Position numbers and translations under genes: made by a program. Shown piece by piece: positions 3,216 to 8,388 of a stretch of DNA of 25,279 bases (its first letter is position 1; the number at the start of each line of letters is the position of its first letter). The stretch covers positions 1-25,279 of the forward strand of contig JAQVKB010000001.1 of assembly GCA_028694875.1 (NCBI GenBank), in the 5' to 3' direction. The DNA is from Candidatus Izemoplasmatales bacterium. GTDB lineage: Bacteria > Bacillota_I > Bacilli_A > Izemoplasmatales > Hujiaoplasmataceae. The notes under the pieces are model-generated. The model ran no database searches, was not told the origin of the DNA, and worked only from the letters and a program-made list of their open reading frames with translations.

Positions 3216-3392
3216 TTATTTTGGTTGCCATTTACAACGAACTGGTGAAATGATGAGTTCTTCCTTTTTCAAAGCATTCATCGCTTTGTCGATCTCTTTT
3301 CGATCCAGACCGGTCAAGTCTTCCAAATCGCCACCAGATACTGGTTTCCCAGCTTTTTTCATGGCATCGAGTACGAGTTCTTTGTTATCCAA
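3216..3392 (-). CDS. Small (58 aa) winged-helix/HTH protein of anaerobes, usually auto-annotated as MarR-family
   Basis: Likely TTG start at 3392 after GGGAGGG. MDNKELVLDAMKKAGKPVSGGDLEDLTGLDRKEIDKAMNALKKEELIISPVRCKWQPK has an HTH pattern and a C-terminal SPxRCxW wing. It has its own consensus promoter. Confidence 0.8.
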   Translation of the reverse strand: MDNKELVLDAMKKAGKPVSGGDLEDLTGLDRKEIDKAMNALKKEELIISPVRCKWQPK

Positions 3393-3464: not shown

Positions 3465-5219
3465 TTAATAGGTTGCCATCACGTTTTTGTGTTTTGGTTT
3501 TTGTTTCTTGCGTTGATGATAATGCGTATGGAGGTATTCGTGAGACAAGTGTCCGAGCGGTTCGATCAAATACTCTTCGTATAGTTTTGTAATCGCTGGG
3601 TTTTCATGGGATTTGCGAATCACCATTTTTCCATCGACTTTGTAGATGGCTTCAAGACGTTTTTGACGAACTTCGGTCGTGGTTCCATAAGGTTGTCCAC
3701 CGCCGCCAATGCATCCACCAGGGCAAGTCATGACTTCGATGAAAGCATAAGGAGATGTACCGGCTTTGATTTGTTCGGCAATGACACGCGCATTGGCCAA
3801 CGTGTGAACCACGGCGACTTTGACATCGGCTCCGCCCAAATTGACGGTCGTTTCTTTGAAGCCTTTGAGTCCACGAACATCCGTGAAATCGAGCTTTTCA
3901 AGCGGCTTTTTGTTCACGACTTCATAGACTGTACGAAGAGCCGCTTCCATCACACCACCCGTCGTACCGAAAATCGCGGCGGCGCCAGTGGTAATTCCGA
4001 ATGGGTTGTCGAATTCACTGTCGGGAAGACTTTCAAAATCAATACCCATTTGACGAATCAATTTGCCGAGTTCGCGAACGGTAAGGGCGACATCCACATC
4101 AGGATGTTTTCCATCATGACGCATCTCAGGACGTTGGGCCTCATATTTCTTGGCCGTACAAGGCATGATCGATACGACAAACAGATTTTCGGGATCCCAA
4201 CCGATTTTCTCCGCATAATAACCTTTGGCCAATGCGCCGAACATTTGTTGCGGTGATTTGCAGGTCGAGAGATTCGGTAGGATTTCTGGATAGTACGTTT
4301 CCGCGAATGAAATCCATCCAGGGCAGCAGGATGTGAGCATCGGGAGCGTGCCACCTTCGGTGACGCGCTTGATGAGTTCATTGCCTTCTTCGATGATCGT
4401 GAGGTCGGCGGTAAAGTCGGTGTCAAACACATCGTCGAATCCAAGCAAACGCAACGCGGTCGCGATTTTTCCAGTGACGATGGAACCGGCTTTCAAACCG
4501 AGTTCTTCACCCAAGGAAACGCGAACAGCAGGAGCGACTTGAACGATCGTCCGTTTACGTTCGTCATGAAGCGCATCCCATACTTTATCCGTTTCATCTT
4601 TTTCAAGAATGGCGCCAACAGGGCAAACCGAAGCGCATTGTCCACAGAACGTACAAGACTCATCAGAGAGGTACTTGCCATAGGCGGGCGTAATCTTCAT
4701 CGATTGACCGCGGCCCATGATTTCCAAAATATTCGTGGTTTGAATGTTTTTGCAGACGTCGATGCAACGACCGCATTTGATGCATCGGTTCGGGTTTCGA
4801 ACCAAAGCGGGGTTATGATCATCGATCGGTTCCATCTTCAATACCGAAGGGAATCTCGCTTGGTCGATACCAAGAATGTTCGAAAGGTTTTGCAGCTCGC
4901 AGTTCATGTTTTTTGCACAAGCATTGCAGTTCGAATCATGGTTCGTGAGAATCAATTCGGTGATGGTCTTTCTCGCATTGATGACGCGAGGGGAGTTCGT
5001 GATAATCTTCATGCCTTCCCGGACTTGGGTCGAACAAGAAGTCACCAACCCTTTTCTTCCTTCAATTTCGACGACGCAAACGCGACATTCGCTATTGATG
5101 TGAAGATCGGGATAATTGCAGAGCGTTGGAATTTTAATGTTGTTTTGTTTGGCAGCGTTGAGAATTGTGGTGCCTTCTTTGACGCTCACTGGAATGTTAT
5201 TGATCTTTAAGTTAATCAT
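3465..5219 (-). CDS. hydA: [FeFe]-hydrogenase group A catalytic subunit HydA (trimeric type)
   Basis: N-terminal [2Fe-2S] domain, His-ligated cluster (HDSNCNAC...C), two [4Fe-4S] motifs (CIKCGRCIDVC, CTFCGQCASVCP). H-cluster motifs TSCCPGW, MPCTAKKYE, EVMTCPGGCIGGGGQP. AGGAGG RBS. Confidence 0.97.
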   Translation of the reverse strand: MINLKINNIPVSVKEGTTILNAAKQNNIKIPTLCNYPDLHINSECRVCVVEIEGRKGLVTSCSTQVREGMKIITNSPRVINARKTITELILTNHDSNCNACAKNMNCELQNLSNILGIDQARFPSVLKMEPIDDHNPALVRNPNRCIKCGRCIDVCKNIQTTNILEIMGRGQSMKITPAYGKYLSDESCTFCGQCASVCPVGAILEKDETDKVWDALHDERKRTIVQVAPAVRVSLGEELGLKAGSIVTGKIATALRLLGFDDVFDTDFTADLTIIEEGNELIKRVTEGGTLPMLTSCCPGWISFAETYYPEILPNLSTCKSPQQMFGALAKGYYAEKIGWDPENLFVVSIMPCTAKKYEAQRPEMRHDGKHPDVDVALTVRELGKLIRQMGIDFESLPDSEFDNPFGITTGAAAIFGTTGGVMEAALRTVYEVVNKKPLEKLDFTDVRGLKGFKETTVNLGGADVKVAVVHTLANARVIAEQIKAGTSPYAFIEVMTCPGGCIGGGGQPYGTTTEVRQKRLEAIYKVDGKMVIRKSHENPAITKLYEEYLIEPLGHLSHEYLHTHYHQRKKQKPKHKNVMATY

Positions 5220-5232
5220 AAGTCAAGCCTCC

Positions 5233-6492
5233 TTACAGATTCGACGGATGGTCGATCCGGTCGATGTACTCGTCGCGGAAGAAGCGTAGCGACGCGATAA
5301 TCGAGGTCGGAGAGGTTTGACCGAGTCCGCACAAAGATGTCTGATGCATCACTCTGGCGAGTGATTCGAGAGAATCCAAATCTTTCGTTGTGGCTTCTTT
5401 TTTGTTGAATTTACGGATGAGTAATTCGAGTTGTGTATGACCTTCACGACATGGAACGCATTTTCCGCAAGATTCATGTTCGAAGAAATGGACGGTCTTC
5501 AATAAGATGTCGAACAAATCGAAACGGTCATCGATGACGATAATCGCACCGGAACCTGTTTTCGATTCGAATTCTTCGAAACGTTCGTAGTCAATCATCA
5601 TGTCGAGCATGTATTCCGGGATGACTGGTCCGCAAGCGCCACCGAGTTGTACCATCTTGATCTTGCGATCGTTTTTCACGCCGCCGCCAAGATCGAAGAT
5701 GACATCACGAATCGAGACACCAAATTCGATTTCATAGACGCCAGGTTTCTTCACATTCCCGGAAAGCGAAAGAAGTTTTGTTCCAGTTGACGTTGGCGTT
5801 CCCATCTTCGCATATTCTTTTCCGCCGACATTGATAATGACGGGAAGGTTCGCGAAAGTTTCCACGTTGTTGATGACGGTCGGTTTGTCAAAGACGCCTT
5901 TTTCGGTTGGGAACGGCGGTTTGACTCTGGTACGACCGGGCTTTCCTTCGATACTTTCGATGAGCGCGAATTCTTCACCGCACACATACGACCCAGCGCC
6001 ACTACGAATTTGAATGTCGAAATCAAATTTCGTATTACGGATGCCTTTCCCTAAATAGCCTTCTTCACGGGCTTTTTTAAGGCATTCATGCATGATGGAC
6101 ATCGCTTCTTGGTATTCGCCACGAATGTAGATGAACCCATGGGTCGCGCCGGTGGCATAAGCCATAATCGTCATACCTTCGATGACCGCAAACGGATCCT
6201 TTTCCAACAAGGCTTTGTCTTTGAAGTTTCCTGGTTCGCCTTCATCGGCGTTACAGATGATATATTTTGGCAGGTTGGTTTCTTTGGCGAGTCCCATCAT
6301 TTTGATGTGAGTCGGGAAACCGGCGCCGCCGCGCCCACGCAGATACGAGGCTTCAACTTCTTCGATAATGGAAATACGTTCCATTTTCAACGCTTTTGTT
6401 AAGCCAGTGTATCCTTCGGTTTTCAAATAGTCGTCCAACGAAACGGGATTGATCCGGTCAAAACGCCGGGAGATAATCTTGGTCTCTTTCAT
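5233..6492 (-). CDS. hydB: Hydrogenase diaphorase subunit HydB (NuoF-like, FMN/NADH-binding), short form
   Basis: LRGRGGAGFP, CNADEGEPG, GAGSYVCGEE and the [4Fe-4S] motif HESCGKCVPCREG...CGLG. ATG overlaps the hydC stop (TGATG); the in-frame GTG at 6495 is an alternative start. Confidence 0.93.
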   Translation of the reverse strand: MKETKIISRRFDRINPVSLDDYLKTEGYTGLTKALKMERISIIEEVEASYLRGRGGAGFPTHIKMMGLAKETNLPKYIICNADEGEPGNFKDKALLEKDPFAVIEGMTIMAYATGATHGFIYIRGEYQEAMSIMHECLKKAREEGYLGKGIRNTKFDFDIQIRSGAGSYVCGEEFALIESIEGKPGRTRVKPPFPTEKGVFDKPTVINNVETFANLPVIINVGGKEYAKMGTPTSTGTKLLSLSGNVKKPGVYEIEFGVSIRDVIFDLGGGVKNDRKIKMVQLGGACGPVIPEYMLDMMIDYERFEEFESKTGSGAIIVIDDRFDLFDILLKTVHFFEHESCGKCVPCREGHTQLELLIRKFNKKEATTKDLDSLESLARVMHQTSLCGLGQTSPTSIIASLRFFRDEYIDRIDHPSNL

Positions 6493-6950
6493 CACATGTA
6501 CACCCTGTATTCCGCGAGAATCGCTTTGATTTTGTTTGGCGTTAGTTTGGTGTAAACTTTGTCATCGATGCGCATGGCAGGTGCCTCATCGCAAAGTCCG
6601 ATGCAAGAAGTGTACTCCAGGGTGAATTGTTGGTTTTCCGTGGTTTCGTTGACTTTGATACCGAGTTCTTTTTCCAGCGTCTTCGCGACGTTGAAGTCGC
6701 TTTCGACATGGCAGGGGACGCCGCCGCAAACCTGGATGACGTGCTTGCCTTTGTTCTCCGTGCGAAAAAAAGTATAGAACGATAAGACGCTGCATACTTT
6801 GGCTTCGGAGATGTGGAGATACGATGCGATTTGACGAACTTCGTCTTCCGAGATAAAATGGTTGATTTTCGCATCTTGGAACGCAAGAAGAATTTCGAGT
6901 AGACTATCTTCTTGCTGAGGATACTTTTCCAGTATCTTGTCCAGTAACAT
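6492..6950 (-). CDS. hydC: Hydrogenase subunit HydC (NuoE-like, thioredoxin-like [2Fe-2S])
   Basis: CGGVPC and CIGLC cysteine pairs, SFYTFF and APAMRID. RBS AAGGAGG 8 nt upstream. Confidence 0.93.
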   Translation of the reverse strand: MLLDKILEKYPQQEDSLLEILLAFQDAKINHFISEDEVRQIASYLHISEAKVCSVLSFYTFFRTENKGKHVIQVCGGVPCHVESDFNVAKTLEKELGIKVNETTENQQFTLEYTSCIGLCDEAPAMRIDDKVYTKLTPNKIKAILAEYRVYM

Positions 6951-7166
6951 GTGTTGCTCCTCCTTAGTAGTTTTTATGCAGTCTAAGGAGACAACCCAAG
7001 TTGTCCATCATGATGTTTTTTGTGTTGGCAAGTCGTGTTGTTTTCAAAGGGCGCCCCTTGACTTGCGGGGTAGTACTTGGAAAGCTAAGACCGTATTGAA
7101 AGTGTTTTTGTTTCCTAGCTTTTTTGTTCGAAAAACCTGAAACCTCCTTCATATTCAAAATACTCT
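6951..7166 (-). ncRNA. Candidate structured cis-regulatory 5' leader (riboswitch-like) of hydCBA
   Basis: ~215 nt between the promoter and the hydC start. It holds several stems and an anti-SD (CUCCUUAG, 6990-6983) that can pair with either the hydC SD or an upstream AAGGAGGU (7149-7142). G-U pairs work only on the minus strand. The 5' end is estimated from the -10 box. Confidence 0.5.
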
Positions 7167-7172
7167 ATTTCC

Positions 7173-7201
7173 ATTATACGAACCAGACCCTCTTCTGTCA
7201 A
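7173..7201 (-). promoter_or_regulatory. Perfect sigma-A promoter of the hydCBA operon
   Basis: Minus strand TTGACA(7201-7196)-17 bp-TATAAT(7178-7173). Confidence 0.85.
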
Positions 7202-7230
7202 CATCGCGCGCGGGAAAAACCTTTGTTTTC

Positions 7231-7259
7231 TTGTAAAGAAACACCAAATTTGTTACAAT
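7231..7259 (+). promoter_or_regulatory. sigma-A promoter of the ychF operon
   Basis: TTGTAA(7231-7236)-17 bp-TACAAT(7254-7259) with extended -10 TG at 7251-7252. Confidence 0.65.
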
Positions 7260-7284
7260 ATAAGACAGGTTAGGAGAGTAGAAT

Positions 7285-8388
7285 ATGGGACTAACAGCTG
7301 GAATCGTCGGATTACCGAATGTCGGGAAATCCACCTTATTTAATGCCATCACCAAATCCAAGGCACTGGCCGCCAACTATCCGTTCGCGACGATTGACCC
7401 GAACGTCGGTGTTGTCGAGGTGCCCGATACACGCGTCGATCAATTAACCGCGATGTATCAACCCAAGAAAACCATCTATACCACGTTTGAATTTACCGAT
7501 GTGGCAGGATTGGTGAAAGGTGCCTCTCAAGGAGAAGGATTGGGCAACCAATTTTTATCTCACATTCGTTCTTGTGATGCGATTTGTCAAGTCGTTCGTT
7601 GTTTCGAAGATGACAATGTCATCCATGTAGAAGGAAGTGTGGATCCGCTACGAGATATTGAAACGATCAAGATTGAATTGATCCTTGCGGATGTTGCAGT
7701 GATTGAGAATCGCATCCCGAAAATCAAGAAAAAAGCGGAAATGAAAACGGACAAAGAAGCAGCCCAAGAATATGAGATTTTGTTGCGTCTTCAAGAAGCG
7801 CTGTTGGCGGAAACGCCGATTCGGGCTTTAGGTCTTACTCCGGAAGAACTGAAGTCGATTAAACACTTTAGTTTCTTGACGGCAAAACCGATGCTTTACG
7901 TGTGTAACGTCTCCGATGAAGAGATTTCCGATCATTCTGAAAATCCGTTTGTGAAAGCGGTCGTGGACCTCGCCAAAACGGAAGGCGCGCGCGCATGTGT
8001 GATTAGCGCGAAAATCGAACAAGAACTTTCCGAACTCGAAGAAGAGGAACGAACGATGTTCTTGGAAGAGATGGGAGTCCATCAATCTGGATTGATTGAC
8101 TTGATCAATCAAAGCTATGATATGTTGGGATTACAGACCTTCTTTACCGCTGGCGAAAAGGAAGTCCGCGCATGGACCTTCAAAAAAGGGTCAAAAGCAC
8201 CGGAGTGCGCGGGGATTATTCATTCCGACTTTGAAAAGGGATTTATTCGCGCGGAAACCATTCATTTCAATGATTTGATGTCTGCGGGTAGTGAAGCCAA
8301 AGCCAAAGAACAAGGGAAATTCCGTTTAGAAGGCAAAGAATATGTTGCTCAAGATGGAGACATCTTCCATTTCCGATTCAATCTCTAG
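7285..8388 (+). CDS. ychF: Ribosome-binding ATPase YchF (Obg family)
   Basis: GIVGLPNVGKSTLFN, ANYPFATIDPN, GEGLGNQFL, C-terminal TGS domain (AGIIHSDFEKGFIRAE...EGKEYVAQDGD). Confidence 0.98.
   Translation: MGLTAGIVGLPNVGKSTLFNAITKSKALAANYPFATIDPNVGVVEVPDTRVDQLTAMYQPKKTIYTTFEFTDVAGLVKGASQGEGLGNQFLSHIRSCDAICQVVRCFEDDNVIHVEGSVDPLRDIETIKIELILADVAVIENRIPKIKKKAEMKTDKEAAQEYEILLRLQEALLAETPIRALGLTPEELKSIKHFSFLTAKPMLYVCNVSDEEISDHSENPFVKAVVDLAKTEGARACVISAKIEQELSELEEEERTMFLEEMGVHQSGLIDLINQSYDMLGLQTFFTAGEKEVRAWTFKKGSKAPECAGIIHSDFEKGFIRAETIHFNDLMSAGSEAKAKEQGKFRLEGKEYVAQDGDIFHFRFNL

What the first reader, a model, noticed from the sequence alone, without database searches (positions are those of the whole stretch)
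6951..7166. Candidate undescribed riboswitch-like RNA switch controlling translation of an [FeFe]-hydrogenase operon
Seen in sequence (minus strand): a perfect promoter (7201-7173) puts about 215 nt of leader ahead of hydC. An anti-SD, CUCCUUAG (6990-6983), pairs perfectly over 8 bp with CUAAGGAG (6967-6960), which contains the hydC SD; this would be the OFF state. The same anti-SD can instead pair with a decoy SD near the 5' end: AAGGAGGU (7149-7142) with GUCUCCUU (6992-6985), then a 2-nt bulge and UUCAGGUU (7141-7134) with AACUUGGG (7002-6995). That gives about 16 bp and would free the SD (ON state). No start codon follows the decoy at SD distance. The AACUUGGG segment has two more competing partners: CCAAGU (7080-7075) and a local GACAAC-UUGG-GUUGUC hairpin (7005-6990). 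Internal stems are AAAGCUAGGA/UCUUAGCUUU (7122-7113/7090-7081) and GCAAGUC/GACUUGC (7066-7060/7034-7028), joined by repeated A/C-rich linkers. The G-U pairs become A-C mismatches on the other strand, so the structure favours the transcribed strand. Established knowledge: anti-SD/anti-anti-SD exchange is the standard expression platform of translational riboswitches. I recognise no known aptamer consensus here and saw no Rex box. Inference: it may respond to a ligand or signal tied to redox or H2 metabolism, to temperature, or to an RNA-binding protein.
Basis: partly seen in the sequence, partly recalled or inferred. Interest (0 to 1): 0.82.

Follow-up and report, generated by a model that had tools for sequence, protein, structure and literature searches.

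The report
Conserved leader RNA before hydrogenase operon

Summary
There is a 12/12 sigma-70 promoter and a leader of about 216 nt before hydC-hydB-hydA, in an Izemoplasmatales MAG. The single sequence is not special: the fold is no more stable than shuffles, and occlusion of the ribosome-binding site ranks 74th of 297 genes.

Comparison of 86 hydC upstream regions changes this. In the window's own family:
- 31 of 40 keep a near-consensus promoter with a leader of 140 nt or more.
- 28 of 40 keep an orphan GGAGG 16-34 nt after the -10 (sister family: 2 of 46).
Its stem sequence differs between genera.

Downstream, the closest relatives have SD-sequestering hairpins in different registers. Other genera have terminator-like hairpins with U-runs. 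Rfam 15 matches nothing.

It costs 9 kcal/mol, and the GGAGG box has no consistent predicted partner.

Verdict: an uncatalogued conserved cis-regulatory leader with unknown effector; the GGAGG box looks more like a STAB-SD-type 30S docking site. This sequence was not noted before, though the scan has flagged other hydrogenase-operon leaders.

The parts
7173..7201 (-). Sigma-70 promoter: TTGACA (7201-7196), 17-nt spacer, TATAAT (7178-7173). Predicted start at about 7166.
   Evidence: 12/12 match. Near-consensus promoters at the same relative place in 31/40 same-family hydC upstream regions.
7142..7149 (-). Orphan SD-like box AAGGAGGU, about +18 to +25 of the transcript, with no start codon behind it.
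   Evidence: A GGAGG-like box (GGAGG, GGGAG or GAGGAG) lies 16-34 nt after the -10 in 28/40 family members against 2/46 in the sister family. It is the only clear orphan among 25 GGAGG boxes behind consensus promoters in this genome. It is predicted mostly unpaired here (0.22) and has no consistent partner in relatives.
7081..7122 (-). Hairpin P1: 10-bp stem (7122-7113 with 7090-7081) and a 22-nt loop containing CUUUC (7102-7098) and ending in CGG (7093-7091).
   Evidence: A CGG-loop hairpin with a stem of 7 bp or more occurs in 24/40 family leaders (shuffles: mean 4.2, max 8); 10 bp or more in 16 against 0.4; the sister family is at the null level. Stem sequences differ between genera. RNAalifold on 11 leaders of two other genera predicts only this helix, and 5 of its 11 pairs show compensatory changes.
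7028..7066 (-). Hairpin P2: GCAAGUC/GACUUGC enclosing a small GGGG-CG-CCCU hairpin.
   Evidence: In the MFE structure, pair probability 0.80. Close relatives have a hairpin of different sequence at the same place, for example GAAUUCG/CGAAUUC. These regions cannot be aligned well, so this is suggestive only.
6995..7015 (-). Conserved sequence block CAUCAUGAUGGACAACUUGGG (the UGGACAAC and CUUGGG boxes). ACUUGG can pair with CCAAGU 7080-7075.
   Evidence: Variants of ACAACUUGGG or UUGGACAAC recur in same-genus leaders and in two other genera. The long-range CCAAGU:ACUUGG helix is in the MFE but has negligible probability in the slightly longer construct.
6983..6995 (-). Anti-SD strand GUUGUCUCCUUAG.
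   Evidence: It pairs with 6967-6953. The duplex is -17.5 kcal/mol and beats 99.3% of shuffles. Pair probability is 0.99 in the full leader. Pyrimidine-rich anti-SD segments of other sequence sit at the same place in L023, L025 and L115.
6953..6967 (-). SD strand CUAAGGAGGAGCAAC, containing the hydC Shine-Dalgarno sequence. The ATG is at 6950-6948.
   Evidence: A strain variant seen in a public metagenome run changes only positions outside the stems: 6982, 7007 and an insertion after 6979.
3465..6950 (-). The controlled operon: hydC (NuoE-like, 6950-6492), hydB (NuoF-like, 6495-5233), hydA ([FeFe]-hydrogenase, 5219-3465).
   Evidence: Pfam matches: 2Fe-2S_thioredx 3e-47; Complex1_51K 1e-46; Fe_hyd_lg_C 1e-99.

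Best explanation
This is one member of a conserved, structured 5' leader of the hydCBA operon found in one family of Izemoplasmatales. A very strong constitutive-type promoter makes a leader of about 216 nt. Control is then exerted after initiation.

Shown:
- The leader architecture is conserved across at least eight genera: an orphan GGAGG near the 5' end, and hairpin P1 with a U-rich loop ending in CGG.
- It is followed by a lineage-specific output module.
- In this genome that module is a hairpin that buries the hydC ribosome-binding site. In several other genera it is a terminator-like stem plus U-run.

Inferred:
- The default state here is translationally OFF or low. An unknown effector acting on the conserved upstream part (P1 and the conserved single-stranded boxes) shifts the balance.
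- The conserved features are mostly short single-stranded words on a variable scaffold, which makes a protein or the 30S subunit somewhat more likely as effector than a small molecule.
- The 5' GGAGG most likely works as a STAB-SD-like 30S docking site that protects the long leader from RNase J and/or keeps a ribosome on standby. It probably is not the conserved anti-anti-SD strand. In this genome it may also compete for the anti-SD during transcription.
For: - Promoter and leader.
- Family-wide conservation of promoter plus long leader (31/40), 5' GGAGG (28/40 against 2/46) and P1 (24/40 against 4.2 expected; 16 against 0.4 for stems of 10 bp or more).
- P1 stems differ between genera and 5/11 pairs are compensatory in another clade.
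- Anti-SD:SD duplexes are significant in 4 close relatives, in different registers.
- Terminator-like hairpins inside the leaders of four other genera.
- An orphan GGAGG is not a general feature of leaders in this genome.
- GGAGG is predicted unpaired here and has no consistent partner.
- RNase J is encoded (443 bits against a cut-off of 400).
- The STAB-SD precedent is described in PMC4113751.
- No Rfam family matches the window or 20 relatives' loci.
- Strain variants avoid the stems.
Against: - There is no transcript data (no RNA run was listed), so the start site and the leader itself are predicted only.
- The fold of this leader is not more stable than shuffles, and its SD occlusion is unremarkable genome-wide.
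- Only P1 has solid comparative support. The other helices could not be aligned across genera.
- 9 to 16 of the 40 family members lack one or another element.
- The closest relatives L022, L024 and L055 have only weak anti-SD pairing (p about 0.1), and L026 has none.
- No effector was identified. The candidates tested (small wHTH next to hydA, TM1266-like protein, CsrA) do not co-occur with the leader.
- Genera are related, so the counts overstate independence.
Confidence: 0.5

Rival explanations
1. This is a metabolite-sensing translational riboswitch. The 5' GGAGG decoy plus UUCAGGUU captures the anti-SD (6992-6985 and 7002-6995) to free the SD in the ON state, with ligand binding deciding between the two folds.
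For: - Both helices exist.
- The decoy:anti-SD duplex is -17.4 kcal/mol in this genome, better than 97% of shuffles.
- The decoy is transcribed first, so a kinetic trap is possible.
- The GGAGG is conserved in position.
- In L082/L083 the box is predicted to pair with the pyrimidine 3' arm of the terminator (probability 0.99).
- Output modules vary, as in riboswitch families.
Against: - The extended pairing is at chance in L023, L115, L022, L024 and L055 (p 0.54-0.91).
- The ON fold is 9.1 kcal/mol above the MFE and has ensemble probability 2e-5.
- The GGAGG has no consistent partner in 22 leaders.
- No multi-helix junction core with covariation was found, only one hairpin.
- No known aptamer matches.
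Confidence: 0.15
2. A non-switching leader. The GGAGG box (STAB-SD type) and the hairpins only stabilise a highly expressed mRNA and set a fixed translation rate. Nothing is sensed.
For: - A 5'-proximal orphan SD is the most conserved feature.
- RNase J is present.
- There is a STAB-SD precedent with a 129-nt leader.
- The promoter is of consensus, constitutive type.
- There is no excess folding energy.
- SD occlusion is not unusual.
Against: - A stabiliser does not need about 200 nt of leader.
- It does not need a hairpin with a conserved loop motif, nor internal terminator-like hairpins upstream of the first gene in other genera.
- An SD hairpin of -14 kcal/mol lowers expression, which fits poorly with a pure 'maximise output' role.
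Confidence: 0.22
3. The leader encodes a small protein, the 62-codon ORF from ATG 7152 to TAA 6964 whose stop overlaps the hydC SD. Alternatively, it works through translation of a leader peptide.
For: An open frame spans the whole leader and ends inside the hydC SD, which would allow translational coupling.
Against: - No SD precedes ATG 7152, and it lies only about 14 nt from the predicted start.
- There is no Pfam match.
- tblastn finds nothing in 87 other upstream regions.
- The longest ORFs in seven close relatives are 22-33 codons, at different places.
- No start codon sits at a consistent distance behind the 5' GGAGG.
Confidence: 0.03
4. Chance. An ordinary intergenic spacer whose pairings are what any 216-nt A/U-rich sequence with a GGAGG would give.
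For: z = -0.69 against shuffles, the opposite strand folds better, and the SD pairing rank is 74/297.
Against: Family-wide conservation of leader length, the GGAGG position and P1, with changing stem sequences, while the sister family sits at the null level.
Confidence: 0.05

Closest known systems
STAB-SD 5' mRNA stabiliser of Bacillus thuringiensis cry3A (Agaisse and Lereclus 1996, as summarised in PMC4113751)
   Same: - An SD-like GGAGG close to the 5' end of a long (129 nt there, about 216 nt here) untranslated leader, with no start codon behind it, in a Firmicutes-type organism.
- The 5'-3' exonuclease that STAB-SD blocks (RNase J) is encoded here.
   Different: - Here the box comes with a conserved hairpin and a regulated-looking output module.
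- Stabilisation is untested.
- The 16S 3' end of this MAG is not assembled, so complementarity could not be checked.
Translational riboswitch expression platforms (SD sequestered by an anti-SD, released by an alternative pairing)
   Same: - An anti-SD:SD hairpin directly upstream of the start codon, preceded by a conserved structured domain.
- Relatives use terminators instead, the usual pattern within a riboswitch class (own knowledge of the class).
   Different: - No aptamer core is defined and there is no ligand.
- Only one helix has covariation.
- The proposed anti-anti-SD is not conserved.
- No Rfam class matches.
Protein-dependent leader attenuators of Firmicutes (PyrR/pyr, TRAP/trp; own knowledge)
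   Same: - A strong promoter and a long leader.
- Conserved short single-stranded words and a conserved hairpin loop on a variable scaffold.
- A terminator or an SD as the output.
   Different: - No binding protein was identified.
- The three candidates tested are not co-distributed with the leader.
- There is no repeated triplet or PyrR-box-like motif.
Leaders and attenuators noted by this scan before other hydrogenase or hydrogenase-maturase operons (e1-891664, e1-872217, e1-5188453 and others; AI notes)
   Same: Hydrogenase operons in several anaerobe lineages carry long leaders with terminators or SD-occluding pairings and no catalogued RNA family.
   Different: - Those are in other phyla or clades.
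- No sequence similarity to this leader was found by the scan's index.
- The motifs described there (Rex boxes, uORF, TM1266 link) are not found here.

Membership tests
Known riboswitch or cis-regulatory RNA classes (Rfam 15) | A covariance-model match at or near the gathering score. | tested here: not met
   There were 0 matches at gathering score in the whole window. An E-value scan of 6850-7300 gave only noise: ToxI 16.8 bits against 50 and DapZ 15.5 against 56, neither a match to the transcribed leader (ToxI lies upstream of the promoter, DapZ on the + strand). In 20 relatives' loci the only match was a tRNA.
Riboswitch (generic definition) | A conserved aptamer domain with covarying helices. 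| tested here: inconclusive
   One hairpin (P1) is conserved, with changing stem sequences and a conserved loop motif. The other helices could not be aligned across genera. No junction core was defined.
Riboswitch (generic definition) | Mutually exclusive pairings linking the sensor to the SD or terminator, conserved across members. | tested here: not met
No other conserved alternative pairing was established.
Riboswitch (generic definition) | Direct binding of a small-molecule ligand. | not testable with these tools
   This needs in-line probing, SHAPE or ITC.
STAB-SD type 5' stabiliser | An SD-like sequence near the 5' end of the transcript that does not start translation. | tested here: met
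   AAGGAGG lies at about +18 to +25. No ATG, GTG or TTG lies 4-11 nt behind it. The position is conserved in 28/40 relatives. The transcript start is predicted, not mapped.
STAB-SD type 5' stabiliser | A 5'-3' exonuclease (RNase J) is present, and the box is complementary to the 16S 3' end. | tested here: inconclusive
   RNase J is present: TIGR00649, 443.5 bits against a cut-off of 400. The 16S 3' end is not in this 70%-complete MAG.
STAB-SD type 5' stabiliser | The box increases mRNA half-life. | not testable with these tools
   This needs rifampicin decay assays on wild-type and mutated leaders.
Intrinsic-terminator attenuator | A G+C-rich hairpin plus U-run between the promoter and the first gene. 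| tested here: not met
   There is none on the minus strand of 6950-7166 in this window. One is present in leaders of four other genera of the family. The family therefore includes attenuators, but this member is of the SD-hairpin type.
Leader-peptide (ribosome-mediated) attenuation | A conserved short ORF with its own RBS in the leader. | tested here: not met
   The 62-codon ORF is unique to this genome, and relatives have no ORF at a consistent place.
Rex-controlled hydrogenase promoter | A TTGTGAA-N4-TTCACAA operator at the promoter. | tested here: not met
   No match with 3 or fewer mismatches lies near 6950-7300. The 3 matches elsewhere in the window equal the chance expectation.
CsrA-controlled leader (two GGA sites, one at the SD) | CsrA is encoded in the genome. 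| tested here: not met
   PF02599 has no match above its cut-off in any of 61 genomes of the order, including this one; controls were positive.

The most novel reading that the evidence does not exclude
The conserved 5' domain (the GGAGG box, P1 with its UUUUCU...CGG loop, and the UGGACAAC/CUUGGG boxes) is the aptamer of a new riboswitch class. It would sense a metabolite tied to hydrogen or redox metabolism, such as the NADH/NAD+ ratio, an Fe-S or iron signal, or a nucleotide second messenger. It would drive [FeFe]-hydrogenase expression through either SD sequestration or termination, depending on the genus. Distant relatives may exist in a second order of the class.
Probability: 0.18. Interest if true: 0.85.

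Novelty: new member of a known kind. Interest (0 to 1): 0.55.

Why it matters
Regulation of [FeFe]-hydrogenases in fermenting bacteria is known mainly at the level of DNA-binding repressors such as Rex and of sensory hydrogenases. Here a whole family of uncultured, genome-reduced Izemoplasmatales pairs a consensus promoter with a conserved, uncatalogued leader RNA. This suggests that hydrogen production is tuned after transcription initiation. These organisms occur in oil-field, landfill and aquatic metagenomes.

If a ligand or protein partner is found, it would give a direct handle on what these cells sense before releasing reducing power as H2. It would also add a new family to the catalogue of cis-regulatory RNAs. 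Finally, the finding is an example where the same conserved 5' domain is joined to translational or transcriptional outputs in different genera.

Tried and rejected
1. blastn of the leader against 60 relatives found only the promoter region in two same-genus genomes. The leader is too diverged for DNA search.
2. A covariance model of P1 (R1) was built from the only rows that MAFFT kept in register. It was too specific to one genus and recovered few other members, so no genome-wide or class-wide model search was possible. MAFFT could not put the arms of P1 in register across genera.
3. A hand-written descriptor (GGAGG plus a CGG-loop hairpin) gave 21 hits in this genome against 4-15 in shuffles. 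It is not specific, and no convincing second copy was found.
4. k-mer motif discovery was swamped by low complexity.
5. A pseudoknot between GGAGG and the pyrimidine tract of the P1 loop was considered. Several loops (L022, L025) lack any C in the tract, so this was dropped.
6. Candidate trans-acting factors were all rejected:
   - The small wHTH gene at 3219-3392 is in only 4/61 genomes.
   - The TM1266-like ACT protein (own genome, contig C107:299-553) is in 10/70 family genomes and does not track the leader.
   - CsrA was not found.
7. The small-ORF reading was rejected.
8. No RNA-seq run was listed. Metagenome contigs of a related strain gave only 3 differences, all outside stems, which is weak support.
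9. Protein-guided scans of public genome and metagenome contigs gave few extra close relatives: L115/L116 and the partial L114.
10. The strand-asymmetry argument was rejected.

Full report
**Setting.** The window comes from a 70%-complete MAG whose nearest named relatives are Candidatus Izemoplasmatales. On the minus strand lie hydC (NuoE-like, 6950-6492), hydB (NuoF-like, 6495-5233) and hydA ([FeFe]-hydrogenase, 5219-3465). ychF is transcribed divergently from 7285. The organism is present in oil-facility, landfill and aquatic metagenomes.

**Observation.** The promoter TTGACA-17-TATAAT (7201-7173) matches 12 of 12 positions. The leader runs from about 7166 to 6951. The anti-SD:SD hairpin (6995-6983 with 6967-6953) is -14.2 kcal/mol on its own and has pair probability 0.99 in the full leader. 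No Rex box is present.

Taken alone, the sequence is not remarkable:
- The MFE is -48.1 kcal/mol against -45.1 +/- 4.3 for shuffles (z = -0.69).
- In a -75..+15 context, the SD pairing probability (0.82) ranks 74th of 297 genes with a GGAGG ribosome site in this genome.
- Rfam 15 gives nothing at gathering score, and only noise when matches are listed up to E = 10.

**Comparative evidence.** I collected the DNA upstream of hydC orthologues from 88 genomes of the order, plus metagenome contigs. blastn cannot align the leaders even within the genus, but their architecture is conserved in the window's own family (f1). Of 40 upstream regions:
- 31 have a near-consensus promoter followed by a leader of 140 nt or more.
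- 28 have a GGAGG-like box 16-34 nt after the -10, against 2 of 46 in the sister family f2.
- 24 have a hairpin whose loop ends in CGG next to the 3' arm, with a stem of 7 bp or more. Shuffled leaders give a mean of 4.2 and a maximum of 8. For stems of 10 bp or more the count is 16 against 0.4. Family f2 is at the null level.

Its stem sequence differs between genera (AAAGCUA, AGCUACA, UCUAUAAUAUA, AAUGCAU, GACGCA, GGCGA, UGAAUUAUGGUA, CCGGAG, GAAAUAG). The loop keeps a U-rich tract followed by CGG, often AUCGGUGA. RNAalifold on eleven leaders of two other genera predicts only this helix, and 5 of its 11 pairs show double changes. Twenty relatives' loci have no Rfam match apart from a tRNA. 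Genera are related, so these counts overstate independence. Even so, the contrast with the sister family and with shuffles is large.

**Output modules.**
- In the closest relatives, a pyrimidine-rich segment 25-35 nt upstream pairs with the SD in different registers. The duplexes beat 98.7% or more of shuffles in this genome, L023, L025 and L115. They are weak in L022, L024 and L055 (p about 0.1) and absent in L026.
- In four other genera the leader instead contains a hairpin followed by a U-run 29-58 nt before the start codon. In g2 a hairpin that overlaps that U-run, holding it in its loop, shows double (compensatory) changes in 5 of its 15 pairs.
- The same 5' domain joined to translational or transcriptional outputs is what regulated leader families look like.

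- The extended decoy:anti-SD helix (7149-7134 with 7002-6985) is -17.4 kcal/mol here (p about 0.03). The equivalent duplex is at chance in L023, L115, L022, L024 and L055 (p 0.54-0.91) and borderline in two others.
- Forcing it costs 9.1 kcal/mol relative to the MFE, and its ensemble probability is 2e-5.
- Across 22 leaders the GGAGG box has no consistent predicted partner. In this genome it is predicted mostly unpaired.
- It is also not a generic feature. Of 25 GGAGG boxes behind near-consensus promoters in this genome, 23 are real ribosome sites with a start codon, and only the hyd leader is a clear orphan.
- A conserved, 5'-proximal, unpaired, orphan SD is what the STAB-SD stabiliser of cry3A looks like (PMC4113751). 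RNase J is encoded here. The 16S 3' end is not assembled, so complementarity could not be checked.

**Other readings.**
- The 62-codon ORF across the leader (7152-6964) has no SD, no family match and no counterpart in relatives.
- Candidate trans-acting factors do not track the leader. The small wHTH gene after hydA is in 4 of 61 genomes. A TM1266-like ACT protein is in 10 of 70 family genomes. CsrA was not found in 61 genomes.
- No second copy of the motif was found in this incomplete genome, although the descriptor used is weak.
- No RNA run was listed. A related strain differs at 6982, at 7007 and by one insertion after 6979, all outside the stems.

**Reach.** The sister family f2 lacks the motif and has other promoter and leader features. 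Three leaders from a different order of the class (L118-L120) are about 250 nt long. They share a GGAGGAAC-like 5' box, UGGACA and GAAUUGU words, and a U-rich stretch before the SD. Homology is possible but not established.

**Verdict.** The specific decoy-SD riboswitch mechanism is not supported.
- The most likely picture is a post-initiation control leader. Its SD hairpin keeps hydC translation low, its conserved 5' domain is read by an unknown effector, and its 5' GGAGG docks a 30S subunit for stability or standby.
- The scan's earlier notes show that leaders and attenuators before hydrogenase and maturase operons recur in other lineages, but none resembles this sequence.

Noticed in passing
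L058, L059, L113, L073, L093, L095, L086, L104 (sister-family hydC upstream regions): A palindrome of the type TTTGTAATACAAA (core TGTAATACA) lies in or next to the hydC promoter in four genera of family f2. It is probably the operator of a DNA-binding regulator, used in place of the leader motif of family f1.
   Followed up: no
L039, L073, L079, L093, L095, L104 (family f2); compare window 7015-7006: f2 leaders share CAUCAUGAC ... GAUGUGGU followed by a U-run. This is a different terminator-type attenuator before hydC. The word CAUCAUGA also occurs in this window's leader and in two f1 genera.
   Followed up: partly
L118, L119, L120 (another order of the same class): hydC leaders of about 250 nt with a GGAGGAAC-like 5' box, UGGACA and GAAUUGU words and a U-rich tract before the SD. 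They may be distant relatives of the f1 leader.
   Followed up: partly
window 7231-7259 (+): The divergent ychF promoter (TTGTAA-17-TACAAT with an extended TG) is conserved in same-genus genomes. This explains the only blastn matches of the intergenic region.
   Followed up: partly
window 6964-7152 (-): A 62-codon ORF spans the leader and its stop overlaps the hydC SD. It is not conserved in relatives, so it probably arose by chance.
   Followed up: yes
own genome contig C107:299-553 (L124:299-553): A stand-alone 84-aa ACT-like protein weakly matches the TM1266 'iron-only hydrogenase system regulator' family (31 bits, below the cut-off). It has a patchy distribution in the family.
   Followed up: partly
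window 3219-3392 (-): A small winged-helix gene with its own consensus promoter lies directly after hydA. Homologues were found in only 4 of 61 related genomes and are not linked to the leader.
   Followed up: partly
window 6979-7007: A co-occurring strain in one metagenome run carries T>C at 6982, A>T at 7007 and an extra G after 6979 (+ strand). All three lie in loops or linkers of the predicted fold.
   Followed up: yes
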